From NCBI GenBank assembly GCA_963727905.1, contig CAVSIC010000021.1:34998-98997 (forward strand): a stretch of 64,000 nucleotides of DNA. Reading direction: 5' to 3'. Position numbers and translations under genes: made by a program. Every line of letters begins with the position of its first letter. The stretch's first letter is position 1. The DNA comes from an uncultured Microthrixaceae bacterium. GTDB lineage: Bacteria; Actinomycetota; Acidimicrobiia; Acidimicrobiales; VFJN01. Positions 24,681 through 49,228 of the stretch are shown here, one piece after another. The notes beneath the pieces were generated by a model that had not been told where the DNA came from, did no database searches, and worked only from the letters and a program-made list of their open reading frames with translations.

Positions 24681-25414
24681 TGTGGCAGGGCCCGGCGGCG
24701 GTCCAGGAATCGGACCGCGGCCACCACCATCACGAGGACCACGAGCCCGTCGAGCCAGTAGTGGTTGGCGGTGACGACGACCGCGAACGACGTGACCACG
24801 GCATGGACGACCCCGATCCAGCGCCAGCGGGCGCGGGTCATCTGCCACATGCCGTACGCCACGATCAGCGCCCAGCCCACGTGCAGCGAGGGCATGGCGG
24901 CGTACTGGTTGGCCACGCTGGCCACGCCGGGCCGGGAGTAGATGGCCGGGCCGTAGCGGGCGATGGTGTCCACGAAGCCGGCCATCATCCGCGGCGGGGC
25001 CAGCGGGTAGAGGATCTGGGTCGCGAGGGCCACCCCCGTGACGGAGACGAACACGAACCGGATCCGGCGGTACAGGTCGGGGCTCTTCACGTACACGAGC
25101 GCGATGAACGCGACCGTGGCCGGGAAGTGGACCATCGCGTAGTACCGGTTCAGGAGCTTGATCACCGGCAGGTGGTCGAGCAGGACGTCCTGGAGCCGCT
25201 CCTCGTTGGCGAGGCCGACGTCGCGCTCCCAGCGCAGCACGTCACGGGCGTGGTCGAACGCCTCGTCGATGTTGTTCCGCCCGAGGTAGCGGCCGAGCCG
25301 GTACAGGGTGAGCAACGAGAACAGGAGCGCGATCTCGAGGAGCAGCCGACGGCCGAACCGCCCGCGCCACCAGACGCCGACGTGCGACCCCATCTGGACG
25401 CGCCCCGCAGACAC
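24647..25414 (-). CDS. PAP2_3-type membrane protein (inositol-phosphorylceramide-synthase/PAP2-like superfamily)
   Basis: 255 aa, polytopic. 'YAAMPSLHVGWALIV ... VVTANHYWLDGL' matches the PSLH ... H.x.D motif of the PAP2_3 family as I recall it. Confidence 0.65.
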   Translation of the reverse strand: MSAGRVQMGSHVGVWWRGRFGRRLLLEIALLFSLLTLYRLGRYLGRNNIDEAFDHARDVLRWERDVGLANEERLQDVLLDHLPVIKLLNRYYAMVHFPATVAFIALVYVKSPDLYRRIRFVFVSVTGVALATQILYPLAPPRMMAGFVDTIARYGPAIYSRPGVASVANQYAAMPSLHVGWALIVAYGMWQMTRARWRWIGVVHAVVTSFAVVVTANHYWLDGLVVLVMVVAAVRFLDRRRALPQWTPCPTTPTT

Positions 25415-25453
25415 GCTCGGGACCGTACCCCTCTTGCCGTGCTCGAAGCTCCC

Positions 25454-27763
25454 TCAGGCGTCCTGCGGGACCTTCTCCTCCAGCTCGTCGTCGAGGGGGG
25501 CGGCCACGCTGGTGCCCTCCACCGCGACGTGCGGGATCAGCCGGTCGAGCCACCGCGGCAGCCACCAGTTCCGGTCGCCCAGGAGCTCCATGGTGGCCGG
25601 CACCAGGAGCATGCGGACGATGGTGGCGTCGAGGAAGATCGCCGACGCGAGGCCGGTGCCCATCAGCTTGAACGTGCGGTCGTTCTCGAGGATGAAGCTC
25701 CCGAACACCACGACCATGATCGCGGCAGCTGCCGTGATCACCTTCGCCGTGGCGGCGAGCCCGTCGGCCACGGAGGTCCGGCTGTCGCCCGTGCGGTGCC
25801 ACTCCTCCCGCACCCGCGAGAGCAGGAAGACCTCGTAGTCCATCGACAGGCCGAACACGATGGCGAACAGCATCATCGGCATCCAGGGCTCGACCGGGCC
25901 GGGCTGCACGCCGGTGATGTCGCTCAGCCACCCCCACTGGAAGAGGGCGACCATGATCCCGTAGGCGGCACCGATCGACAGCAGGTTCATCACCACCGCC
26001 TTCAGCGGGACCAGCAGCGACCGGAACACCACCATCAGCAGCAGGAACGACAGGATCAGCACGGCCCCGAAGAAGATCGGGATGCGCTCGCGCATCAGGC
26101 TGGAGGCGTCGACGTTGGCGGCGACGATGCCCGTGACCTTGATGTCGGTGCCGGTGGCCTGCTCGACGCCCGGGAGGACGTCGTCACGGAGGCGGTCGAC
26201 GAGCGCGTCGGTGGCCTCGTCCTGCGGTCCGGAGGTGGGGGCGACGAACCACCGCACCGCGGTGCCGGCCTCGTTCGGCTGCGGACCGAGCACGGCCGCC
26301 ACGGACGGATCCGCGCCGACCGCCGTGTTGACCGCCGCGAGCGCCTGCAGGTCGGCCCCCGGCTGGACCTCGGTCACGAGGTACAGCGGGCCGTTGAAGC
26401 CCTTGCCGAAGCCCTCGACCAGGAGGTCGTAGGCCTGCTTCGTGGTGGTGTCGTCCGCGAAGTTGCTCTCGTCGGAGAAGGCCAGGCGCAGCCCGAGCAC
26501 CGGGATCGTGAGCACGAGGAGCACCACAGCCCCGCCGAGCGTCGCCCGCCACGGCCGGTGCTGGATCACGCGGCTCCACCGGTAGGCGACGGTCTCGCGG
26601 CGCGGCTTCGGCGGTCGGTGGGTGATCTCGGTCTTGAGGGCCGGGACGAACGTCCCGACGATCAGGACCAGGATCGCGAGTGGGAACGCGCCCATGAGCG
26701 GGGGGACGTCGAGGCCGAACCCGACGAGGCCGACGGCGACGAGGGTGGCGGCGAGCAGCCCGCGGCGCTTGGTCCGCTCGATGTTCTCGCCGGCGAAGCC
26801 GAGGAACGCCGGGAGCAGCGTCACCGAGGCCAGGACCGTGAGCAGGACGGTGAAGGCGGCCGTGACGGCGAGGCCCTGCACGAACCCGATGCCCATGAGC
26901 AGCATGCCGAGGACCGAGACCACGACCGTGGCGCCCGCGAACAGCACGGAGCGGCCGGCGGTGTCCATCGCGATGCCGACCGACTCCCGCACGTCGTGTC
27001 CGGCATGGAGCTGCTCGCGGTGTCTCGTGATGATCAGCAGCGCGTAGTCGATGCCGACGCCGAGCCCGATCATGATCCCGATGAACGGGGCGAACTCCGG
27101 GACGTCGATGAGGTTGCTGAACAGGATGACGCCCGCCCCACCGATGCCGATCCCCACGAGCGCGACCGCGACGGGCAGGCCCATGGCCAGCACCGAGCCG
27201 AACGCGACGATGAGGATGATCACGGCGAAGGCGAGGCCGAGGGCCTCGGAGCTGGGCTCCTCGAACTCGGCGAAGAGGTAGCCACCGAGCTCCACCCGCA
27301 GGCCGTCGATCTCCGGGAAGTTGTCCTCGATGGCGTCGCGGTCGTCGCCGACCTTCGCGAAGTCGACGTCCTCGGGATACTCGACGTTGGCGTACGCGAT
27401 GGTGCCGTCCTCGGAGATGAGCTCCTCGCCGCCCGGGCCGTACGGGCTCTGCACCGCGACGACCTCGGGGTACGTGGCGACCTCGTCGATGAGCGCGGAC
27501 ATGGCGGCCTGCACCGCGGGGTCGTCCACGCCCTGGTCGGCCTGGAACACGATCGTGCCGACCTGGCCGGCGCCCTGTCCCTCGAACTCCGCGGTGAGGA
27601 TGTCGAAGCCCTCGGACGATTCGGCCCCGGGGAGGCTGAAGTCCTGTCGGTAGTCCTCGCCGATGCTGCTGGCGATGCCGTTGCTCAGGACGAGGATGAG
27701 GACCCACGCGGCGACCACCCAGCGGCGGCGGTCGTGGCACCAGGGACCGAGTCGGGCGAACAT
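25454..27763 (-). CDS. MMPL-family (RND superfamily) lipid transporter
   Basis: 769 aa from ATG 27763. Two six-TM bundles each follow a large periplasmic domain. 'GLGVGIDYALLIITRHRE' and 'GLSMDYEVFLLSRVREEW' are the duplicated MMPL signatures. The track ORF extension to 29329 is antisense to the WS/DGAT gene. Confidence 0.92.
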   Translation of the reverse strand: MFARLGPWCHDRRRWVVAAWVLILVLSNGIASSIGEDYRQDFSLPGAESSEGFDILTAEFEGQGAGQVGTIVFQADQGVDDPAVQAAMSALIDEVATYPEVVAVQSPYGPGGEELISEDGTIAYANVEYPEDVDFAKVGDDRDAIEDNFPEIDGLRVELGGYLFAEFEEPSSEALGLAFAVIILIVAFGSVLAMGLPVAVALVGIGIGGAGVILFSNLIDVPEFAPFIGIMIGLGVGIDYALLIITRHREQLHAGHDVRESVGIAMDTAGRSVLFAGATVVVSVLGMLLMGIGFVQGLAVTAAFTVLLTVLASVTLLPAFLGFAGENIERTKRRGLLAATLVAVGLVGFGLDVPPLMGAFPLAILVLIVGTFVPALKTEITHRPPKPRRETVAYRWSRVIQHRPWRATLGGAVVLLVLTIPVLGLRLAFSDESNFADDTTTKQAYDLLVEGFGKGFNGPLYLVTEVQPGADLQALAAVNTAVGADPSVAAVLGPQPNEAGTAVRWFVAPTSGPQDEATDALVDRLRDDVLPGVEQATGTDIKVTGIVAANVDASSLMRERIPIFFGAVLILSFLLLMVVFRSLLVPLKAVVMNLLSIGAAYGIMVALFQWGWLSDITGVQPGPVEPWMPMMLFAIVFGLSMDYEVFLLSRVREEWHRTGDSRTSVADGLAATAKVITAAAAIMVVVFGSFILENDRTFKLMGTGLASAIFLDATIVRMLLVPATMELLGDRNWWLPRWLDRLIPHVAVEGTSVAAPLDDELEEKVPQDA

Positions 27764-27904
27764 GGCAGCTCCTGCAGGCGTGGGATGGATGTCCGGCAGA
27801 CGCAGCATGGCCTCCCGAGTCATCGGACAAAGGGATCTTTCCTGCACCATCGCGCAGAATCCCTGACATCCCGTGTCCGGTGACAACCGACCAAATACGC
27901 CCAG

Positions 27905-29317
27905 ATGGTCAAGTTCGATAGCGTCGGTCGGATGCCCACTGCGAAGCGCTTGAACGAGGCCGATGCCAACTTCGTGGTGGTGGGGGCCGCGAGCGGCACC
28001 CCGTTCGTGCCCGTCGCGGTCACGGTCTACGAGCACCCGCACCCCGATCCGGCCACCACCGAGCACCTCATCGAGGTGATGTCCCGGCTGCTCCCGTCGA
28101 TGCACCAGCGCATCGTGCGCGATCGGCTGAGCCCCGCGCTCCCCCGCTGGGAGGACGTCCCCGGGTTCGATCCCGCCGACCACACGGTGGTGCTGCCCGC
28201 CCCGGGCGACGGCACCCTGCGGGCCGTCCTCGACTGGGCCCAGGAGTGGGGACGGCTGCCGCTCCCCCTCGACCGTCCGCAGTGGCGGTCCGTGAGCTTC
28301 GAGGACGTCACCGTCGACGGCGTCCCCGGCCGACTCGTGATGGTGGCGCAGTTCCACCACGCGGTGATCGACGGGATGGGCGCGATGCGTCTGGCCGAGC
28401 ACTTCTACCAGTGGGGTCCCGACGGCGAGCTGCCGGCGATGCCCGACCCCGTCGAGGCCGACACCTCCACCCCGTTGGAGGCGTGGAAGGCCGGGTGGGC
28501 ATCCGAGGCCGGCAAGGCCAAGGCGCTGCTCCGCAACACGGGGCGCCGCCTGCGGTGGGCCGCGTCGAACCCGAAGGCCGGCGTCGCCCGCGCCAAGGAG
28601 CTCGGCGCCGCGCTGCAGCGCATGCAGGCCGAGCAGGGCACCGAGCCGCTCAGCCCCCTGCTCCGCCGCACGTCCGACCGCAACCGCTTCGACCACCTTC
28701 GCGTCGACCTCGACGCCCTGCGGGCCGGCGCCCGCTCCCTGGGCGGCAGCGCCAACGACGGCCTGCTGGCGGCGGTGAGCCTCGGCCTGCACCGGTACCA
28801 CCTCGACCACGGCCTGCGCGTCCCCGCGGTGCGCACGGCGATGGCGATCAGCACCCGCACCGAGGCCGACGGCCACGCCGGCAACGAGCTGATCGCCGCG
28901 ATCATGGGGCTGCCGCTCATCGGTGACGCGGAGACCGCGGTGAAGGAGTGCCAGGCCGTCAGCCGCGCCCAGCGGGACGACCGCGACGTGATGTGGCTGA
29001 TGGACCGCTCGCGGGCGGCGATCAACCGCTTCCCGAAGCCCCTGATCGCCCGCACGATCGTGAAGGGCAGCAAGGCCCTCGACATGACGATCTCCAACGT
29101 CAAGGGCATGCCCCTGCGCAGCTGGGTGGGCGGCGTCGAGTCCCTGGAGACCGTGCCCTTCGTCATCGGCGGCCCGGCCCTCTCCGTCACCCTCATCAGC
29201 GGCCCGTCGTTCGCCTCCCTCGGCGTGGTCACCTGCCCCGAGGCCATCACCGACCCCGAGGTCCTGGTGCAGCACTTCGAGAAGGCCTTCGAAGAGGTCA
29301 GCGCCCTCGCCGGTTGA
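27905..29317 (+). CDS. WS/DGAT-family O-acyltransferase (wax ester synthase / diacylglycerol acyltransferase-like)
   Basis: 470 aa. The catalytic 'HHAVIDGMG' (HHxxxDG) motif is present, and the C-terminal half is typical of WS/DGAT. ATG 27932 is an alternative start. Confidence 0.85.
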   Translation: MVKFDSVGRMPTAKRLNEADANFVVVGAASGTPFVPVAVTVYEHPHPDPATTEHLIEVMSRLLPSMHQRIVRDRLSPALPRWEDVPGFDPADHTVVLPAPGDGTLRAVLDWAQEWGRLPLPLDRPQWRSVSFEDVTVDGVPGRLVMVAQFHHAVIDGMGAMRLAEHFYQWGPDGELPAMPDPVEADTSTPLEAWKAGWASEAGKAKALLRNTGRRLRWAASNPKAGVARAKELGAALQRMQAEQGTEPLSPLLRRTSDRNRFDHLRVDLDALRAGARSLGGSANDGLLAAVSLGLHRYHLDHGLRVPAVRTAMAISTRTEADGHAGNELIAAIMGLPLIGDAETAVKECQAVSRAQRDDRDVMWLMDRSRAAINRFPKPLIARTIVKGSKALDMTISNVKGMPLRSWVGGVESLETVPFVIGGPALSVTLISGPSFASLGVVTCPEAITDPEVLVQHFEKAFEEVSALAG

Positions 29318-29323
29318 CCCCGA

Positions 29324-29389
29324 CCCCACTGGTTCTGGCCCGGAACGGTGGACCTATAGGTCGACGATCCCGGGCCAGAACGCGTGGGG
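29324..29389. repeat. 66-bp palindromic intergenic element, copy A (20-bp arms CCCCACTGGTTCTGGCCCGG / CCGGGCCAGAACGCGTGGGG, centre with perfect palindrome GACCTATAGGTC)
   Basis: Read directly. It begins 7 nt after the WS/DGAT stop. A second copy of identical length and arm sequence lies at 46892-46957. Confidence 0.9.
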
Positions 29390-29537
29390 TGTCGCGGGCG
29401 GTGATGGCTCCGATGTAACGCGAAGCCGTCTCCGCGCAATACAGGGGTAGGCACCGACCGGTCCTACCAAGCAGAGGAACCGCGACGCGGTGTCGACCCA
29501 CCGAGGGAGTCCCCTCAGATCGGAGGTCGACGTCTCG

Positions 29538-29930
29538 ATGATCGAGACGGAAGGTCATCGCCTCACTCGGAGGCGCTTCATGGTCGGATCCACAGCAACG
29601 CTCGCGGCCGGGTCCGGATTGCTCGTGGCGTCTGCCACTCCCGCCGGGGCCCTTCCAGGATCCGCGACCGCGAAGATCACCTACGTTGGCGTCGGGGATT
29701 TCGTCCGCTGCCGCATGTACGGCGCAGGGTGGATCCGCGGGACGATCACCTACACCGTGTACCACTACGGCACCGTCATCTGGCGCGACACTCGCGTCAA
29801 GTACAGCGCCACCAGCTTCGACTACACCCACGTCGTCGACTGTGACGGCCTCGACGGTCCATGGGGACTTGTCGTGGACGTCTCCGGGGCCGGGGGCGCA
29901 ACCTCGGCAAACGACGGCACTTGGGTTTGA
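29538..29930 (+). CDS. Small Tat-signal secreted protein, unknown function
   Basis: 'LTRRRFMVGSTATLAAGSGLLVASATPAGA' is a twin-arginine signal with an AxA cleavage site. The mature part is about 100 aa and beta-rich (ITYVGVGDFVRCRMYGAGWIRGTITYTVYHYG...). GC content is visibly lower than in the flanks. The start is ATG 29538 or the track start 29490. Confidence 0.5.
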   Translation: MIETEGHRLTRRRFMVGSTATLAAGSGLLVASATPAGALPGSATAKITYVGVGDFVRCRMYGAGWIRGTITYTVYHYGTVIWRDTRVKYSATSFDYTHVVDCDGLDGPWGLVVDVSGAGGATSANDGTWV

Positions 29931-29942
29931 GGGGAGATTGAC

Positions 29943-30296
29943 ATGACCGACAAGAGCATTCCGAGCCGCACCACCTCCGACGGCGTCTTCCAGACCTTCG
30001 ATCGGGGAGTGTGGACCAGCCACGATGCCCCCGGCTCCTACCGCGAGCAGGTCGAAGAACGAGCCATGGCCCTACTCGCGGCAGCGATCAGGCAGGCCGA
30101 GAACCCGTCGGCCGCTCGACGAGACGCCTCCGAGTCGCTCCGAGCCGCACGGGTCCTCCGGCGTGAGGCCGAGGTTGTGCAGCTCGCCCTCGCCATGACG
30201 GACCGCCACGAGGCGAACGGCTCACCGTTCGACGCGAACCTGGTCCGTTCGTTCATCCGAGAACGCGCCGCCACCAAAACGACCGGCCCACGCTAG
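29943..30296 (+). CDS. Hypothetical cytoplasmic protein (117 aa)
   Basis: ATG preceded by GAGGGGAG. The protein is predicted helical (EQVEERAMALLAAAIRQAENPSAARRDASESLRAARVLRREAEVVQLALAM). No recognisable domain. Confidence 0.45.
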   Translation: MTDKSIPSRTTSDGVFQTFDRGVWTSHDAPGSYREQVEERAMALLAAAIRQAENPSAARRDASESLRAARVLRREAEVVQLALAMTDRHEANGSPFDANLVRSFIRERAATKTTGPR

Positions 30297-30320
30297 CCGA
30301 TTCGGCTCGGACAGCCGCGC

Positions 30321-31422
30321 TTAGGGCTGGCGGCGGGTGAGGCGGTGGAGGTGGGGGGCGGCGCGGCCGGCGACCAGCGGGAGATCGAGGTAGGTGCGGA
30401 GGCCGGGGTCGGCGGCCACGACGTAGGGCACTGCGTTCACGCAGTGCTGCGCGGTGGCGACGATCCCCGGGTTGCGCAGCGAGGCCGGCCTCCACGCTCA
30501 CGGGGTGCAGCTTGTGCGAAGGTCGTCAGGCAGCTCGGGTCACCGGTGACCTCCACCTCGAAGCGCTCGCCGCCGGGGCCGAAGGTCCAGCCGGGATCGA
30601 GGTCGTCGTCGCCCATGAACCAGTTCACCGCCGCGGTGATCACCGGCGTCCCGTCGACCGTGCCCTCCCACCGGAAGCGCTGCGCGGCGACGAGACCCGG
30701 CTCGATCGGCCCGATGGGTGAGTCGATCGGCGCCGTCGCCACGGCCATCTCGTGGGTGGTGCGCAGCTCCGGGTCGAGGTCGAACCCGAGCTCGTCGGCG
30801 ACCATCCACACCGACTGCCGGAAGCCGGCGCCGAGGGCGTCGGCCATGACGCTCGTGCGCGCCTCCTCGGGCGTCTTGCCGAACAGCATCCAGTCGCGGA
30901 TCACGTCGGGGGCGCCGTAGGTGCGGATGTCGGAGAACTCCTCGGCCCGCACGTGGGTGATCGAACCCGAGAGCGCCGACACCATCAGCGGGAAGCGCTC
31001 GGTGATCCCGCCCGGGTGGATGCCCGTGCCGTGCAGGGTGACGCCGGCCTCGCGGCACACCGCGTCGAAGTGCTCGCGCTGGTCGGTCGGCGGGTAGAAC
31101 CAGCCGAGCGGCGTGACCACGTTCTTGCCCGACCGCAGCAGCTGCTCGCACCACGGCCGGGTCCGCCATGAACGGGCTGTAGACGACGCAGTCGGCCTCG
31201 GTGTCGAGCAGTCGCTCGACGTCGGTCGTTGCGGCGACGCCGACCGGCTCGCGGCCGACGAGCGTGCCGAGGTCGGCGCCGTCCTTCGCATCGCTGTGCA
31301 CCCAGCACGCCGACCAGCTCGAGGTCGGCGCGGTCGAGCACCGCCTCGATGGCGGCGCGGCCGACCCCTCCGGTGGCCCACTGGATGACGCGGAGCGGAC
31401 GGTTGGGCGTGGCCGTGGTCAT
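30321..31422 (-). pseudogene. Frameshifted paralogue of the NAD(P)-binding DapB-like/amine-dehydrogenase-family gene at 32968..34035 (at least 4 frame breaks)
   Basis: The protein can only be read by hopping frames. The segments are MTTATPNRPLRVIQWATGGVGRAAIEAVLDRADLELVG, then HSDAKDGADLGTLVGREPVGVAATTDVERLLDTEADCVVYSPFMADPAVV, then EQLLRSGKNVVTPLGWFYPP...WTFGPGGERFEVEVTGDP, then LHPVSVEAGLAAQPG, then IVATAQHCVNAVPYVVAADPGLRTYLDLPLVAG...*. The whole path is colinear with the intact paralogue. Confidence 0.8.
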
Positions 31423-31453
31423 CCCGCAATATCGCGCGGGATCGCCGCCGAGG

Positions 31454-45262: not shown

Positions 45263-46891
45263 GTGCGGCCCCTCCCCGAGCTGACGCCGGCCAACGAGCG
45301 GTTCTGGACCGGCGGGGCCGACGGCACCCTCCACATCGACGGCTGCGGCGACTGCGGTGCCCTGGTGCACCCGCCCGTCCCCGTGTGCCAGGTGTGCCGG
45401 AGCCGCAACCGCGTGATGGTCCCGGTGTCGGGCCGGGCCACGGTCATCGGGTTCACGGTGAACCACCACAGCTGGACCCCCGCGTTCGAGCCGCCGTACG
45501 TCATCGCCAACGTGGCGCTCGAGGAGGACCCGAGCGTCCGCCTCACCACCAACGTCGTGGGCTGCGACCCCGACGACGTGCACGTGGGCCAGCACGTCGC
45601 GGTGCGCTTCGAGCACCACGAGGACGTGTGGGTGCCGCTCTTCGCGCCGACCGGCGAGCCGGCCGCCGACGAGCTGCCGGTGGCCGCGCCGCAACGCCCG
45701 ACGCCGCGCGCGCCGCTGGGCGACGACCGGTACGAGCACCGGTCGGTGCTCTCCGGGATCGGCCGGTCGAGGCTGGGCCGGCGCCTGATGGTCGACCCGC
45801 TGTCGCTCACGATCGACGCCTGCCTCGAGGCCATCGCCGACGCCGGCCTCACCCCCGACGACATCGATGGCCTGTCGACCTACCCCGGCCCGGTGGGCAT
45901 GGGCATGAGCGAGGGCGGTGTCACCGCGGTCGAGGAGGCGCTGCGCCTGCGGCCCACCTGGATCAACGGCGGCGGGGAGCTCCCCGGGCCGGCCGGCTCG
46001 ATCATCGCGGCGATGCTCGCGGTGAGCGCCGGCCTCTGCCGCCACGTCCTGTGCTTCCGCACCGTGTGGGAGTCGACCTACGCGACCCTGGGGCTGCGAC
46101 CCCCGGCCGGCGGCCGGGTTTCGGGCATGAGCGAGCACCGCGCCCCCTTCGGCGCGATGTCGGCGGCCAGCTGGATCGGCGTCAACGCCAACCACTACTT
46201 CCACCGCTACGGGGCGACGCGGGAGATGCTCGGCTGGATCGCCATCAACGGCCGCACCAACGCCGGTCGCAACCCGGCGGCGATCTACCGCGACCCGATG
46301 ACGATGGACGACTACATGGCCGCCCGCCCGATCTCGAGCCCGTTCGGCCTCTACGACTGCGACGTGCCCTGCGACGGCTCGATCGCGGTGATCGTCTCGG
46401 CCGCCGAGGTGGCGCCCGACCTCCCTCACCCCGCGGTCCGGGTCGAGGCCGCGGGCACGCAGATCCTCGAGCGGGTGTCGTGGGACCAGGACACCGTCAG
46501 CCACGAGCCCCAGGTGCTCGGCCAGAGCGCGCACCTCTGGACGCGCACCGGCCTGCGGCCGGCCGACGTCGACCTCGCGCTCGTCTACGACGGGTTCACG
46601 TTCAACGCCATCTCCTGGCTCGAGGGCCTCGGGTTCTGCGGACTGGGCGAGGCCCAGGACTGGCTCGACGGCGGCCGCCGGATCGCGCTCGACGGCGAGC
46701 TCCCGGTGAACCCGCACGGCGGGCAGCTGTCCGAGGGCCGCACCCACGGCTTCGGCTTCCTCTACGAGGCGGTGACCCAGCTCCGCCACGACGCCGGTGA
46801 GCGCCAGGTGCGCGACGCCCGCACCGCGGTCGTCACCTCCGGCGGCGGCACTCCCTCCGGCGTGCTGCTCCTCCGCAACGACCGCCCGTAA
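45263..46891 (+). CDS. Fusion of a DUF35 OB-fold/Zn-ribbon domain with a thiolase-like (SCP-x / lipid-transfer-protein type) domain
   Basis: 542 aa. The N-terminus has 'FWTGGADGTLHIDGCGDCGALVHPPVPVCQVCRS' (Cys4 ribbon) plus an OB-fold. The C-terminal 390 aa are thiolase-fold without the classical biosynthetic thiolase signatures ('SGIGRSRLGRRL...DGLSTYPG...NPHGGQLSEGRTHGFGFLYEAVTQLR'). Confidence 0.8.
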   Translation: MRPLPELTPANERFWTGGADGTLHIDGCGDCGALVHPPVPVCQVCRSRNRVMVPVSGRATVIGFTVNHHSWTPAFEPPYVIANVALEEDPSVRLTTNVVGCDPDDVHVGQHVAVRFEHHEDVWVPLFAPTGEPAADELPVAAPQRPTPRAPLGDDRYEHRSVLSGIGRSRLGRRLMVDPLSLTIDACLEAIADAGLTPDDIDGLSTYPGPVGMGMSEGGVTAVEEALRLRPTWINGGGELPGPAGSIIAAMLAVSAGLCRHVLCFRTVWESTYATLGLRPPAGGRVSGMSEHRAPFGAMSAASWIGVNANHYFHRYGATREMLGWIAINGRTNAGRNPAAIYRDPMTMDDYMAARPISSPFGLYDCDVPCDGSIAVIVSAAEVAPDLPHPAVRVEAAGTQILERVSWDQDTVSHEPQVLGQSAHLWTRTGLRPADVDLALVYDGFTFNAISWLEGLGFCGLGEAQDWLDGGRRIALDGELPVNPHGGQLSEGRTHGFGFLYEAVTQLRHDAGERQVRDARTAVVTSGGGTPSGVLLLRNDRP

Positions 46892-46957
46892 CCCCACTCG
46901 TTCTGGCCCGGGTTTCACGACCCAGGGGTCGACTGTTCCGGGCCAGAAGCCGTGGGG
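46892..46957. repeat. 66-bp palindromic intergenic element, copy B (arms CCCCACTCGTTCTGGCCCGG / CCGGGCCAGAAGCCGTGGGG)
   Basis: Read directly. It starts the base after the stop of 45263..46891 and ends 1 nt before the stop of the convergent P450, so it fills the whole gap. It has the same length and arms as 29324-29389. Confidence 0.9.
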
Positions 46958-46958
46958 C

Positions 46959-48140
46959 CTACGGGGTGGTGACGGGGAGCTTCTCCCAGCCGCGGACGGT
47001 GGAGGTGCGGGCCTGGACGGCGTTGTCCCAGTCGACGTCCCATGTGGGGAACCGCTGCAGCACCTCGTCGAGCGCCACCCGGCCCTCCAGGCGGGCCAGC
47101 GCGGCACCGAGGCAGAAGTGGATGCCGTAGCCGAACGACAGGTGGTGGTCGATCTTGCGGTGGATGTCGAACGACTCGCCGTCCGGGAACTTCCGCTCGT
47201 CGCGGTTGGCCGACGCGTTCAGCAGGAGGATGGCGCTGCCTGCGGGCACCACCTGACCGTGGTGCTCCACGTCCTGGGTGACGTAGCGGGCCTGCACCGG
47301 TGACGGGGCCTCGAACCGCAGGAGCTCCTCGACCGCGCCCGGCACGAGCGAGCGGTCCGCCACGAGCTCGGCCCGCTGGTCGGGGTGCTCGGCCAGGACC
47401 TTGCCCGTCCAGCCGATGAGCCGCGTGGTGGTCTCGTTGCCGGCGGCTGCGATGAGCCCGACGTAGTTCAGGATCTCCTGGCGGTGCAGTCGGCGCGTGG
47501 TGCCGTCCTCGTCCTCGAACTCGGCCTGGAGGAGCTCGGTCATCAGGTCGTCCGACGGGTGGTCGGCTCGCCAGTCGATGTACTCGGCGAAGACCTTGCC
47601 GGAGTCGTCGACCTTCCCCTTCGGGTCGGGTGCGTCGCCGTCGGCCAGGCGCAGCCCCTCGTCGATGGAGTCGCGGATCGCCTCCTGGTCGGCCTCCGGG
47701 ATGCCGAGGAGGAGGCCGATCGTGCGCATCGGCATCCATGCGCCGAGGTCGCGGATGAAGTCGAACCCGCCGCTGCCCACGAGCGGATCGAGGGTCTGCG
47801 CGCAGAACGCGCGGATCTGCGGCTCGATGGCCGCCATCTTCTTCGGGGTGAACACCCGCGAGAGCAGGCCGCGGTGGAGGTCGTGGGTGGGCGGGTCCTC
47901 GAAGATGAAGGTGCCCGGCGGCATCTCGATGTCGGCCTTGATGAGCTCGAGCAGCGAGCCCTTGGCCGACGAGTAGGTCTTGACGTCGAGCAGACCCTGC
48001 TCCACGTCGGCGAAGCGGCTGAGCGCGTAGAAGTCGTGCTTCTCGTTGAAGTAGAGCGGCTGCTCGTCCCGGAGCCGCTTCCACACCGGGTACGGATCCG
48101 AGTCGATCTCGAAGTCGTACGGGTCGTAGTAGACGTCCAC
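46959..48140 (-). CDS. Cytochrome P450
   Basis: 393 aa from GTG 48140 (GGGGGAG upstream). 'AAGNETT' (I-helix), 'EELLRF' (ExxR) and the heme loop 'FGYGIHFCLGAALA' are present. The upstream part of the track ORF (to 48386) crosses the repeat array and is rejected. Confidence 0.9.
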   Translation of the reverse strand: MDVYYDPYDFEIDSDPYPVWKRLRDEQPLYFNEKHDFYALSRFADVEQGLLDVKTYSSAKGSLLELIKADIEMPPGTFIFEDPPTHDLHRGLLSRVFTPKKMAAIEPQIRAFCAQTLDPLVGSGGFDFIRDLGAWMPMRTIGLLLGIPEADQEAIRDSIDEGLRLADGDAPDPKGKVDDSGKVFAEYIDWRADHPSDDLMTELLQAEFEDEDGTTRRLHRQEILNYVGLIAAAGNETTTRLIGWTGKVLAEHPDQRAELVADRSLVPGAVEELLRFEAPSPVQARYVTQDVEHHGQVVPAGSAILLLNASANRDERKFPDGESFDIHRKIDHHLSFGYGIHFCLGAALARLEGRVALDEVLQRFPTWDVDWDNAVQARTSTVRGWEKLPVTTP

Positions 48141-48148
48141 AGCTCCCC

Positions 48149-48196
48149 CAGGTTCTTGCGCAGGTGCTGCGCCAGCTTCTTGCGCAGCTTCTTGCG
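48149..48196. repeat. Four tandem 12-mers (CAGGTTCTTGCG CAGGTGCTGCGC CAGCTTCTTGCG CAGCTTCTTGCG)
   Basis: Read directly. The last two copies are identical. The array abuts the RBS of the minus-strand P450 and lies about 70 nt upstream of the plus-strand LLM oxidoreductase start. Confidence 0.85.
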
Positions 48197-48268
48197 ATTC
48201 GTGCCGACCGAGATCCACGTTACACTGCGGGGAGAGGGACGTTCTCGCTCGGAGGGGAGGGCCGCATC

Positions 48269-49228
48269 GTGCGCATCGGACTGATGGTGGGCCCCGAGCG
48301 CGGACGCTACGCGACCAAGGTCGATCGCCTGCGCGCCGATGCCCGCTGGGCCGAGGACGCCGGGTTCGCCTCCATCTGGGTCCCACAGATCCCGGACGAG
48401 TTCGACGCCCTCACTGCGGCGACGCTGGTCGGGCTCGAGACCTCCCGGATCGAGATCGGCACGGCCGTGATCCCCGTGCAGCCCCGCCACCCCATCGCGC
48501 TCGCCCAGCAGGTGCTGTCGGTGCAGGCGGTCCTGCAGGGCCGGCTCGCGCTGGGCCTCGGCGTGTCCCACCACTGGATCATCGACGAGATGCTCGGCCT
48601 CCCCTACGAGCGGCCGGCCGCCACCATGCGGGCCCACCTCGACGTGCTCGACCAGGCGCTCACGGGTGCCGGCGCCGGCTCGGTCGACGTGGAGAACGAC
48701 CGGTTCCGGGTCCACAACCCGATCGACATCACCGACGTCGGGCCCACCCCCGTGCTGATCGCGGCGCTCGGCCCGCAGATGCTGAAGATCGCCGGCGAGC
48801 GCACCGACGGCACGATCCTCTGGATGGCCGACGAGCGGGCCATCGCCACGCACGTGGTCCCCCACCTCCACGCGGCGGCCGAGTCGGCCAGGCGGCCCAC
48901 GCCGCGCGTCGTGGCCGGCATCCCGGTCTGCGTGTGCGGTGACGACGAGGTCGACGTGGCCGTCGCTCGCACCAACCGGGTCCTGTCCGAGGCCGAGGTG
49001 TCGCCGAACTACCAGAAGCTGCTCGACCTCGGCGATGCGACGGCCGTCGGCGACCTGCTGGCGGCCGGCAGCGAGTCCACGGTCGAGAAGCGGCTCCGCT
49101 CCTTCGCCGACGCCGGCGTCACCGACCTGTCGATCCGCGTCGTCCCCATCGGCGACGACCGCGACCAGCTCATCGCCTCCCGCGACCGCACCCGCGCCTA
49201 CCTCGCCTCGCTCGCCGGCGCCCTCTGA
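48269..49228 (+). CDS. Luciferase-like monooxygenase (LLM) class oxidoreductase, probably F420-dependent
   Basis: GTG 48269 (GGAGGGGAGG upstream). 'VRIGLMVGPERG...AEDAGFASIWVPQ...IGTAVIPV' is TIM-barrel LLM N-terminal logic. The C-terminus reads 'LRSFADAGVTDL'. Confidence 0.8.
   Translation: MRIGLMVGPERGRYATKVDRLRADARWAEDAGFASIWVPQIPDEFDALTAATLVGLETSRIEIGTAVIPVQPRHPIALAQQVLSVQAVLQGRLALGLGVSHHWIIDEMLGLPYERPAATMRAHLDVLDQALTGAGAGSVDVENDRFRVHNPIDITDVGPTPVLIAALGPQMLKIAGERTDGTILWMADERAIATHVVPHLHAAAESARRPTPRVVAGIPVCVCGDDEVDVAVARTNRVLSEAEVSPNYQKLLDLGDATAVGDLLAAGSESTVEKRLRSFADAGVTDLSIRVVPIGDDRDQLIASRDRTRAYLASLAGAL

What the first reader, a model, noticed from the sequence alone, without database searches (positions are those of the whole stretch)
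29324..29389. Conserved 66-bp palindromic element (copy A) at the edge of a lower-GC island
The element has 20-bp arms: CCCCACTGGTTCTGGCCCGG and CCGGGCCAGAACGCGTGGGG, which pair at 18 of 20 positions. The 26-bp centre contains the perfect palindrome GACCTATAGGTC and GGTCGAC. A second copy at 46892-46957 has exactly the same length, near-identical arms and the same GGTCGAC. Its inner stem sequence differs (GACCC..GGGTC) but remains self-complementary. That difference is a compensatory pattern pointing to selection on structure rather than on sequence. It looks like a REP/MITE-like or terminator-type family. Copy A sits between the WS/DGAT stop and the orphan two-gene island.
Basis: seen in the sequence. 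Interest (0 to 1): 0.55.

Follow-up and report, generated by a model that had tools for sequence, protein, structure and literature searches.

The report
Dispersed palindromic repeat with partner nuclease
The two 66-base palindromes are real members of a hairpin-forming repeat family scattered through Acidimicrobiia genomes; in relatives, a gene for a DNA-binding nuclease is always bracketed by two copies, an arrangement like the known REP/RAYT repeat systems but with a different kind of enzyme.

Summary
Copies at 29324-29389 and 46892-46957 are 66 nt each, have the arms described and fold far better than shuffles. They sit 6 nt and 0 nt after stop codons.

They belong to a family. About 40 more copies were found in Acidimicrobiia MAGs and metagenomes, none in viral contigs, and no Rfam family matches. 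The 11-bp middle stem TTCTGGCCCGG/CCGGGCCAGAA is near-invariant, partly because it was the search key. The inner hairpin shows many compensatory changes.

24 of 29 solitary copies lie 0-11 nt after a stop codon. There is no U-tract, no G-U over A-C bias on the sense strand, and no target-site duplication. Relatives lack the element at both window sites.

New here: in 10 of 10 loci examined, a ~314-aa protein (AbiEi-like winged-helix domain plus Vsr/DUF559-like nuclease domain) is bracketed by two copies of the palindrome. More distant homologues are bracketed by different, cognate palindromes that also occur as solitary copies. In five lineages the gene sits at the same site, between an acyl-CoA carboxylase gene and metH.

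The best reading is a REP/REPIN-RAYT-like repeat system with a non-HUH nuclease. The genomic association is shown. The mobilising role is inferred. The nuclease gene is not in this window.

The parts
29324..29389 (.). Copy A of the 66-nt palindromic element. Outer stem 29324-29329/29384-29389 (CCCCAC/GTGGGG). 2-nt internal loop. Middle stem 29332-29343/29370-29381 (GTTCTGGCCCGG/CCGGGCCAGAAC). Inner hairpin GACC-TATA-GGTC at 29351-29362.
   Evidence: (77.5 bits, E 1.5e-19)
46892..46957 (.). Copy B of the element. It fills the whole gap between two convergent genes: TAA at 46889-46891 on the + strand, and the stop of the - strand gene at 46959-46961.
   Evidence: (68.2 bits)
27905..29317 (+). 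WS/DGAT acyltransferase gene. Its stop codon lies 6 nt before copy A.
   Evidence: (PF03007, PF06974)
45263..46891 (+). ChsH2-OB/thiolase-like gene. Its stop codon abuts copy B.
46959..48386 (-). Cytochrome P450 gene, convergent with the thiolase-like gene. Its stop codon is 1 nt from copy B. The start may be at 48140.
29321..30329 (.). Lineage-specific segment made of copy A plus about 940 nt of lower-GC orphan DNA. The syntenic relative L109 carries a MEDS/HATPase gene here instead. Homology to L109 stops at 29320 and resumes at 30330.

Best explanation
The two elements are solitary members of a dispersed, REP-like palindromic repeat family of Acidimicrobiia. Each copy is a three-tier dyad: an outer stem CCCCAC/GTGGGG, a sequence-conserved middle stem GTTCTGGCCCGG/CCGGGCCAGAAC, and a variable inner hairpin that is kept self-complementary. 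In related genomes one chromosomal gene encodes an AbiEi-type winged-helix DNA-binding domain fused to a Vsr/DUF559-type PD-(D/E)xK nuclease domain. That gene is bracketed by two copies of the element, and the palindrome sequence changes together with the protein lineage. Inferred mechanism: the winged-helix domain recognises the conserved arms as an inverted repeat, and the nuclease nicks or cuts there. Copies are then spread or maintained at new sites by repair or recombination, as RAYT is thought to do for REP/REPINs. Copies survive almost only just past stop codons, often filling the gap between convergent genes. There they put a very stable hairpin at the 3' end of the transcripts. That may protect or delimit the mRNA, but this is a side effect that has not been shown. 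Shown: the family, its structure and covariation, its position, its variable presence between relatives, and the gene-palindrome association. Inferred: binding, cleavage and mobilisation by the protein. The window's own genome could not be checked for the gene.
For: Family: exact-core copies occur in four Acidimicrobiia MAGs, 3-8 hits each. Further copies came from metagenomes and the covariance model.

Structure: in the 43-copy alignment 80.2% of cells are paired, against 72.9% in shuffles (0 of 500 reached it) and 32-52% when partners are slid. Inner-stem pairs show 5-19 double changes each; for example pair 34/45 is GC 25, AU 10, CG 7, with 1 unpaired.

DNA-level symmetry: there is no G-U excess on the sense strand (31 G-U vs 38 A-C). 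Complementarity extends to 2 nt from the centre (35 of 43 copies against about 24 expected).

Position: 24 of 29 solitary copies lie 0-11 nt after a stop codon.

Variable presence: L109 (84-88% nt identity) lacks copy A. Orthologues of the thiolase-like gene at 77-83% identity lack copy B and carry other hairpins there.

Associated gene: five loci retrieved through the palindrome (L014, L026, L035, L058, L087) hold a 313-314-aa protein between two copies. Five lineages retrieved through protein homology alone (P0168, P0124, P0214, P0218, P0195) are all bracketed as well.

Cognate palindromes: P0214, P0195 and P0218 (44-49% identity) are bracketed by different palindromes (GAACTGGGGT.., GCAACTCGGGTTCGAA.., CCGAACCGGGGTGCG..). 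Two of these types also have solitary copies 4-9 kb away.

Within-genome match: solitary copies share the inner-stem type of the gene-flanking copies in JANOQG01, CAVQWY01 and sample Ga0136633.

Fixed locus: the gene lies between an acyl-CoA carboxylase gene and metH in five lineages.

Protein identity: PADLOC AbiEi hits at E 1e-25 to 1e-32 over the N-terminal 180 aa. The AF2 model (pLDDT 88.6) matches AbiEi 6y8q, Rv2827c 1zel, I-Bth0305I 3r3p, Vsr 1vsr and DUF559 3hrl. Invariant residues E209, D241, E252, E256 and H259 lie in the nuclease part. AbiEi domains are known to bind inverted repeats (abstract of PMC7319586).

Many homologues sit on contigs of 1.04-1.2 kb, the size of the gene plus its flanking repeats, as expected if assemblies break in a multi-copy repeat.

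The element is absent from viral contigs, and the protein from plasmids and phages.
Against: No biochemical or transcript data exist. The nuclease gene is not in the window, and the rest of this genome could not be searched. Copy numbers seen per genome are modest (3-8 exact-core hits), so active spread is not demonstrated. The near-invariance of the middle stem is inflated because it was the search key. The upstream flanking copy could be an operator for autoregulation and the downstream one a 3' hairpin, with no role in mobility. Gene calls around copies come from a simple codon-position model, and some short ORFs are uncertain. The tight spacing to stop codons could equally reflect a host function.
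Confidence: 0.55

Rival explanations
1. The element is a host-selected RNA element, a family of sequence-conserved U-less terminators or 3'-end stabilising hairpins, like the TRIT motif proposed for Mycobacterium tuberculosis. Under this reading the nuclease gene merely uses the same element as its own terminator.
For: 24 of 29 solitary copies lie 0-11 nt after stop codons, and seven lie between convergent genes. The RNA hairpins are very stable on both strands. Orthologues lacking the element carry other hairpins at the same place. TRIT is likewise palindromic, bidirectional and tightly placed at stop codons (PMC3152330).
Against: There is no T/U tract. The mBio 2014 paper PMC3993855 states in its title and abstract that mycobacterial RNA polymerase requires a U-tract at intrinsic terminators. 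Term-seq in M. tuberculosis found only 2-4% overlap between mapped 3' ends and predicted terminators, TRITs included. There is no G-U over A-C bias on the sense strand. The copy upstream of the nuclease gene lies between divergent gene starts, which is not a terminator position. Five solitary copies lie in 5' regions or elsewhere. This reading does not explain why palindrome type tracks the protein lineage.
Confidence: 0.2
2. The palindromes are a set of binding sites (operators) for the AbiEi-like protein. That protein would be a toxin-antitoxin or defence-type regulator or a nucleoid factor, and the copies would not be mobilised by it.
For: AbiEi domains bind inverted repeats in their own promoters (PMC7319586). 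The middle stem is conserved as sequence. An invariant GTCACA box lies 22-30 nt upstream of the start codon.
Against: No AbiEii toxin gene is adjacent in any locus. Binding sites just past stop codons of unrelated metabolic genes make little regulatory sense. The inner hairpin covaries, which a simple duplex operator would not need. A conserved nuclease domain is fused to the DNA-binding domain.
Confidence: 0.12
3. The causality is reversed. The nuclease gene would be a homing-type selfish gene that inserts into pre-existing host palindromes and duplicates its target, so that the palindromes are targets rather than passengers.
For: The C-terminal domain resembles the Vsr-like homing endonuclease I-Bth0305I. 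The two flanking copies in one locus resemble each other closely.
Against: The gene sits at one conserved site, carboxylase/metH, in five lineages whose proteins are only 55-65% identical, which indicates long vertical descent rather than repeated homing. It was never seen at other palindrome sites within the loci fetched. It is absent from phages and plasmids.
Confidence: 0.08
4. The element is a conventional MITE derived from an insertion sequence with terminal inverted repeats.
For: It is short, palindromic, multi-copy and variably present between relatives.
Against: There are no target-site duplications: the best flanking direct repeat averages 2.4 nt against 3.1 nt at random control sites, and none reaches 5 nt. 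No transposase was found in the flanks of any copy. The only recurrent neighbour is the AbiEi-DUF559 gene.
Confidence: 0.05

Closest known systems
REP/REPIN-RAYT systems of Gammaproteobacteria (Pseudomonas, E. coli, Neisseria)
   Same: Both have short extragenic palindromic repeats that form hairpins and are dispersed mostly at gene 3' ends. [quoted passage not shown] In both, the repeat type matches the lineage of the gene (features as described in bioRxiv 10.1101/2021.07.10.451892).
   Different: RAYT is an HUH/Y1 transposase related to IS200. Here the enzyme is an AbiEi-type winged-helix domain fused to a Vsr/DUF559 PD-(D/E)xK nuclease domain. No GTAG-type head was recognised. The host is an actinobacterial class. 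Copy numbers seen are tens rather than hundreds.
TRIT (Tuberculosis Rho-independent terminator) motif of Mycobacterium (RNIE paper, PMC3152330)
   Same: Both are sequence-conserved palindromic hairpins in a high-GC actinobacterium. Both are multi-copy, bidirectional, lack a canonical U-tail and sit within a very narrow distance of stop codons.
   Different: TRIT is reported only from Mycobacterium and is centred about 8 nt inside the coding sequence. The present copies start 0-11 nt after the stop. No associated gene has been described for TRIT. Sequence relatedness could not be tested because no TRIT model or sequence was available here.
AbiEi antitoxins, including M. tuberculosis Rv2827c (PDB 6y8q, 1zel)
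   Same: The N-terminal ~180 aa has the same fold and family. AbiEi binds inverted repeats (PMC7319586).
   Different: There is no AbiEii nucleotidyltransferase partner gene. The C-terminal domain is a Vsr/DUF559-like nuclease instead. The inverted repeats bracket the gene and are also dispersed in the genome.
Vsr-like (EDxHD) homing endonuclease I-Bth0305I and DUF559 proteins (PDB 3r3p, 1vsr, 3hrl)
   Same: The C-terminal ~100 aa shares the fold (TM 0.5-0.8 on the target). The profile hit to 3hrl has E 0.006. Pfam hits to DUF559 and REase_MTES_1575 are weak.
   Different: The motif reads E-V-Q-S-E-R-F-H rather than the usual E-x-D-G-x-x-H. The domain is fused to an AbiEi module. It is not in an intron or intein, nor in a phage.

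Membership tests
REP/REPIN-RAYT | Short palindromic extragenic repeats present in many copies per genome | tested here: met
   There are 3-8 exact-core copies per MAG plus variants, and two copies in this 64-kb window.
REP/REPIN-RAYT | A dedicated gene flanked by the repeats, at a fixed extragenic site and vertically inherited | tested here: met
   10 of 10 loci are bracketed. Five lineages share the same carboxylase/metH site. The gene is absent from plasmids and phages. Strict single copy per genome was not tested.
REP/REPIN-RAYT | The associated enzyme is an HUH / catalytic-tyrosine (Y1) transposase | tested here: not met
   Pfam, PADLOC and fold search give AbiEi plus Vsr/DUF559. There is no Y1_Tnp hit.
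REP/REPIN-RAYT | The enzyme mobilises the repeats | not testable with these tools
   This needs biochemistry or comparison of very close strains.
MITE | Target-site duplication flanking each copy | tested here: not met
   No flanking direct repeat reaches 5 nt, and the values are below random controls.
Canonical intrinsic terminator | GC-rich hairpin followed by a U/T tract | tested here: not met
   The terminator scan finds nothing at either copy. The tails read TGTCGCGG and CCTACGGG.
TRIT motif (Mycobacterium) | Conserved palindromic hairpin tightly positioned at stop codons | tested here: met
   24 of 29 solitary copies lie 0-11 nt after a stop. This compares.
TRIT motif (Mycobacterium) | Sequence/covariance-model match to TRIT; occurrence in Mycobacterium | not testable with these tools
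   No TRIT model was available. Rfam gives no hit. The family found here is in Acidimicrobiia.
Integron attC site | R''/R' core sites (RYYYAAC ... GTTRRRY), arrays of same-direction cassettes, nearby IntI | tested here: not met
   The order is the reverse (GTTCTGG ... CCAGAAC). The window copies are 17.5 kb apart, and one lies between convergent genes. No integrase was looked for beyond the neighbouring genes.
Any Rfam RNA family | Score at or above the family's gathering threshold | tested here: not met
   There are no hits in the window. A permissive search of four loci gave only a sub-threshold miRNA-hairpin match.
AbiE type IV toxin-antitoxin | AbiEi antitoxin encoded next to an AbiEii (DUF1814) toxin | tested here: not met
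   The neighbours are housekeeping genes in all loci.

The most novel reading that the evidence does not exclude
A second, independently evolved REPIN-RAYT-like partnership. A vertically inherited AbiEi-winged-helix/Vsr-like nuclease, not an HUH transposase, recognises the palindromic repeat populations of Acidimicrobiia, nicks them and thereby propagates or maintains them, with protein and palindrome co-evolving. Because the protein family is large (2347 clusters at E<=1e-30, 13840 at <=1e-10), this could give a function to many actinobacterial 'AbiEi/DUF559' proteins. It might also explain stop-codon-hugging palindromes such as TRIT.
Probability: 0.4. Interest if true: 0.85.

Novelty: new variant of a known kind. 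Interest (0 to 1): 0.68.

Why it matters
REP/REPIN-RAYT is so far the one well-argued case of short repeats that persist for long periods in bacterial genomes through a dedicated, domesticated enzyme. A parallel system built on a different nuclease fold, in a different phylum, would show that this way of life evolved more than once. It would also give a testable function to a very large family of uncharacterised AbiEi/DUF559 proteins. It could explain why some high-GC actinobacteria carry sequence-conserved, U-less hairpins pressed against stop codons. On the practical side, these repeats break metagenome assemblies: many homologues sit on 1.05-1.2 kb contigs. They also mark gene 3' ends, which helps annotation of Acidimicrobiia MAGs.

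Tried and rejected
1. Rfam at gathering threshold on the window, and permissively on four loci, found no family.

2. Looking up the exact WS/DGAT protein to identify the source contig found nothing on record.

3. The one-arm metagenome scan returned 62 loci, but about 48 were unrelated coding sequences sharing the 18-mer. Only about 13 were true copies.

4. I tested whether the lower-GC island next to copy A is a decayed nuclease gene, since its size of about 1 kb fits. A profile search of all six frames found nothing. The apparently collinear tblastx hits were compositional noise: the best tblastn score of 23.5 bits was equalled or beaten by 12 of 40 random window segments. Rejected.

5. The island ORFs gave no hit against Pfam, NCBIfam or PHROGs.

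6. The search for target-site duplications found none.

7. G-U against A-C asymmetry was tested as a sign of RNA-level selection. None was found.

8. Integron attC and CRISPR readings were rejected on anatomy.

9. Hits to the core pattern in Komagataeibacter, Pseudomonas, Mycobacterium sp. OTB74, Isoptericola, Planctomycetota, Dehalococcoidia and Thermodesulfatator have other lengths and low model scores (25-46 bits). I treated them as unrelated hairpins that share an 11-mer.

10. Literature searches for DUF559 with palindromic repeats, and for Acidimicrobiia repeats, found nothing relevant.

Full report
**Observation.**
- The arm pattern occurs four times in the window, as the two arms of each copy, against 0.23 expected. 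No shuffle out of 100 reached four.
- Each copy folds on either strand into a three-tier hairpin. The tiers are an outer stem CCCCAC/GTGGGG, a 2-3-nt internal loop, a 12-bp middle stem GTTCTGGCCCGG/CCGGGCCAGAAC, an internal loop, and a 4-5-bp inner stem with a 4-nt loop.
- As RNA the copies fold at -47 to -52 kcal/mol, z -4.9 to -6.7. As DNA they fold at -22.6 and -24.5 kcal/mol.
- A covariance model built later finds no third copy in the 64 kb.
The inner stem GACC/GGTC is the same in both window copies. They differ in the loop and in one symmetric position pair. The 'compensatory pattern' therefore cannot be established from these two copies.

**Setting in the window.**
- Copy A begins 6 nt after the stop of a WS/DGAT gene (27905-29317).
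- Copy B fills the whole gap between a ChsH2-OB/thiolase-like gene (stop at 46889-46891) and a convergent cytochrome P450 gene (stop at 46959-46961).
- Neither copy is followed by a T-run, and a terminator scan finds nothing at either.
- The window is high-GC (about 72%). Its proteins have best matches in Acidimicrobiales MAGs.

**It is a family.**
- Scanning one genome per species for TTCTGGCCCGG-N18-34-CCGGGCCAGAA gave 29 loci. All hits with the N26 spacing that also have the outer stem come from four Acidimicrobiia MAGs, at 3-8 hits each. These are Acidimicrobiales SMAG_U8648, 'Actinomycetes' VAR_4_metabat_369, and two Microthrixaceae bins.
- Hits in other phyla have other spacings and score only 25-46 bits with the family model. 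I regard them as unrelated hairpins sharing an 11-mer.
- A one-arm scan of metagenomes added about 13 true copies among many unrelated coding hits. The covariance model R1 added further variant copies.
- No Rfam family matches, and none of 2.9 million viral contigs carries the element.

**Structure and covariation.** In a 43-copy alignment (A3) the symmetric pairing i with 79-i gives 80.2% paired cells. Shuffles give 72.9% (0 of 500 reach the observed value), and sliding the partners gives 29-52%.
- The middle stem is invariant. This is partly an ascertainment effect, since it was the search key. Even so, copies found through one arm only, or through the model, keep it, with at most a C-to-T change or a one-base deletion.
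- The inner stem shows heavy compensatory change: GTCGACC/GGTCGAC, GTGGACC/GGTCCAC, GTGACCC/GGGTCAC, GCCGCC/GGCGGC, CGCCCC/GGGGCG and GCCACA/TGTGGC. Each pair has 5-19 double changes and few unpaired cells.
- Two results argue that the constraint acts on the DNA dyad rather than on one transcript. G-U pairs are not favoured over A-C mismatches on the sense strand of the adjacent gene (31 vs 38). Complementarity reaches to within 2 nt of the centre (35 of 43 against about 24 expected), which a hairpin loop does not need.

**Position.** I used a codon-position model trained on four Pfam-confirmed window genes. With it, 24 of 29 solitary copies lie 0-11 nt after a stop codon, and seven of these lie between convergent genes. 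Five copies lie in 5' regions or elsewhere. Several of the short flanking ORFs are uncertain. There are no target-site duplications.

**Presence varies between relatives.**
- The closest syntenic relative for copy A is L109, whose WS/DGAT is 78% identical in amino acids and 84-88% in nucleotides. It aligns with the window up to 29320, 3 nt past the stop, and again from 30330.
- Between those points L109 has a MEDS/HATPase gene. The window has copy A plus about 940 nt of lower-GC DNA with no recognisable genes.
- Orthologues of the thiolase-like gene at 77-83% identity lack copy B, but carry other, unrelated hairpins after the stop.
- A 96%-identical orthologue lies on a contig that ends 19 nt after its stop with CCCCAACTGCCTGTTC. 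This is probably the start of a copy cut off at the repeat.

**The associated gene.** Several contigs carried two copies 1040-1065 nt apart. Between them lies a 313-314-aa ORF that is 55-60% identical among five loci (L014, L026, L035, L058, L087).
- The layout is constant: palindrome, then 30-60 nt containing an invariant GTCACA box, then the start codon, then the stop codon, then 0-9 nt, then palindrome.
- As an unbiased test I retrieved homologues through protein similarity alone and fetched their contigs. All five lineages examined are bracketed on both sides.
  - P0124 (63% identity) is bracketed by the canonical element.
  - P0168 (56%) is bracketed by tandem pairs of a GAACTGGCCCGG variant.
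  - P0214 (44%) is bracketed by CGAACTGGGGT...ACCCCAGTTCG.
  - P0195 (49%) is bracketed by GCAACTCGGGTTCGAA...TTCGAACCCGAGTTGC.
  - P0218 (46%) is bracketed by CCGAACCGGGGTGCGAAAGGGCCC...GGGCCCTTTCGCACCCCGGTTCGG.
- The last two palindrome types also occur as solitary copies 4 and 9 kb away, again just after stop codons.
- Within a genome or sample, solitary copies share the inner-stem type of the gene-flanking copies. This holds for JANOQG01, CAVQWY01 and sample Ga0136633.
- In five lineages the gene occupies the same site, between a divergent biotin-carboxyl-carrier/carboxyltransferase gene and metH.
- Many homologues sit on contigs of only 1.04-1.2 kb, as expected if assemblies break in the flanking multi-copy repeats.
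- The protein has no match in 72,556 plasmids or 50,697 phage genomes.

**What the protein is.**
- The N-terminal 180 residues match AbiEi models at E 1e-25 to 1e-32.
- Pfam gives weak AbiEi_4, DUF559 and REase_MTES_1575 hits.
- A profile of 41 homologues hits the DUF559 structure 3hrl at E 0.006.
- An AlphaFold model (pLDDT 88.6) matches AbiEi (6y8q) and Rv2827c (1zel) over the N-terminal and whole chain. It matches the Vsr-like homing endonuclease I-Bth0305I (3r3p), Vsr (1vsr) and 3hrl over the C-terminal domain.
- Invariant acidic and histidine residues (E209, D241, E252, E256, H259) lie in the nuclease part.
- AbiEi domains are known to bind inverted repeats (abstract of PMC7319586).
- No AbiEii toxin gene is adjacent in any locus.
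- The family is large: 2347 50%-identity clusters at E<=1e-30.

**Interpretation.** The pattern is the one described for REP/REPIN-RAYT systems. It consists of a dispersed palindromic repeat, a chromosomal gene bracketed by that repeat, a repeat type that tracks the gene's lineage, a fixed genomic site and no link to plasmids or phages.
- The defining RAYT feature, an HUH/Y1 transposase, is not met. This is therefore not a member of that family but a functional analogue with a PD-(D/E)xK-type enzyme.
- I infer that the winged-helix domain reads the conserved middle-stem arms and the nuclease nicks there. Copies would then be propagated or homogenised by repair or recombination.
- That step is inference only, and the window's own genome could not be checked for the gene.
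- The location of the copies means that transcripts of the flanking genes end in, or read through, a very stable hairpin. A role in 3'-end formation or stability is plausible but unsupported. There is no U-tract. Mycobacterial RNA polymerase needs one (PMC3993855). The analogous TRIT motif barely overlaps mapped 3' ends in M. tuberculosis.

**Comparison with TRIT.** TRIT has 147 palindromic, bidirectional copies tightly placed at stop codons in M. tuberculosis. It is the closest described look-alike of the solitary copies. Whether TRIT has a similar partner gene is an open question that follows from this work.

**Verdict.** The MITE and canonical-terminator variants are not supported. The most interesting result is the partner nuclease. 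No paper in the searchable library links DUF559 or AbiEi-nuclease fusions to palindromic repeats, though that library is incomplete. I rate the finding a new variant of a known kind, with interest 0.68.

Noticed in passing
window 29390-30329: About 940 nt of lower-GC DNA (0.64-0.67) sits here. Its two ORFs (29490-29930 and 29943-30296) have no Pfam, NCBIfam or PHROG hit. The syntenic relative L109 carries a MEDS/HATPase gene at this place. It is not a decayed copy of the nuclease gene.
   Followed up: yes
window 30272-30301 (- strand): A canonical-looking terminator (7-bp stem plus a T-run) lies downstream of the DAP_DH-like gene 30437-31429(-), inside the lineage-specific segment.
   Followed up: no
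window 46874-46891 vs L030 2435-2452 and L032 11614-11631: The last five codons of the thiolase-like gene read RNDRP in the window but QRDGA in a 96%-identical orthologue and in L032. This suggests that the arrival of the element remodelled the gene's 3' end.
   Followed up: partly
L032 11650-11695; L031 11650-11700; L033 11645-11680: Orthologues that lack the element carry unrelated GC-rich hairpins right after the same stop codon, for example GGTGCACCCGGGTACC...GGTACCTGGGTGCACC between convergent genes.
   Followed up: partly
L011 7785-7911; L026 5967-6093; L096 2832-2953 and 3948-4069: Some genomes have tandem copies 61 nt apart. These include tandem pairs on both sides of the nuclease gene, and chimeric arms (GAAC...GAAC next to GAAC...GTTC).
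   Followed up: partly
L014, L026, L035, L058, L087, L096, L102, L104, L106, L107: 22-30 nt upstream of the nuclease start codon: An invariant GTCACA box (consensus TGTCACACCC) lies between the upstream palindrome and the start codon in all ten lineages. It may be an operator or a promoter element.
   Followed up: partly
L106 9820-9875: A tandem run of CCGAACCCGT units lies immediately upstream of the palindrome. In the same locus the nuclease ORF lacks its usual stop and reads through the downstream palindrome, giving a 395-aa product.
   Followed up: no
window ~16.8-18.3 kb, 54.2-55.7 kb, 57.3-58.9 kb: Three paralogous genes share 65-84% identical DNA blocks. They are probably acyl-CoA dehydrogenases, judged from neighbours in related loci.
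   Followed up: no
window 25454-27763 (- strand): The codon-position model strongly favours a 769-aa gene on the minus strand here. The long + strand ORF 24761-27883 gave no Pfam hit and is probably spurious.
   Followed up: no
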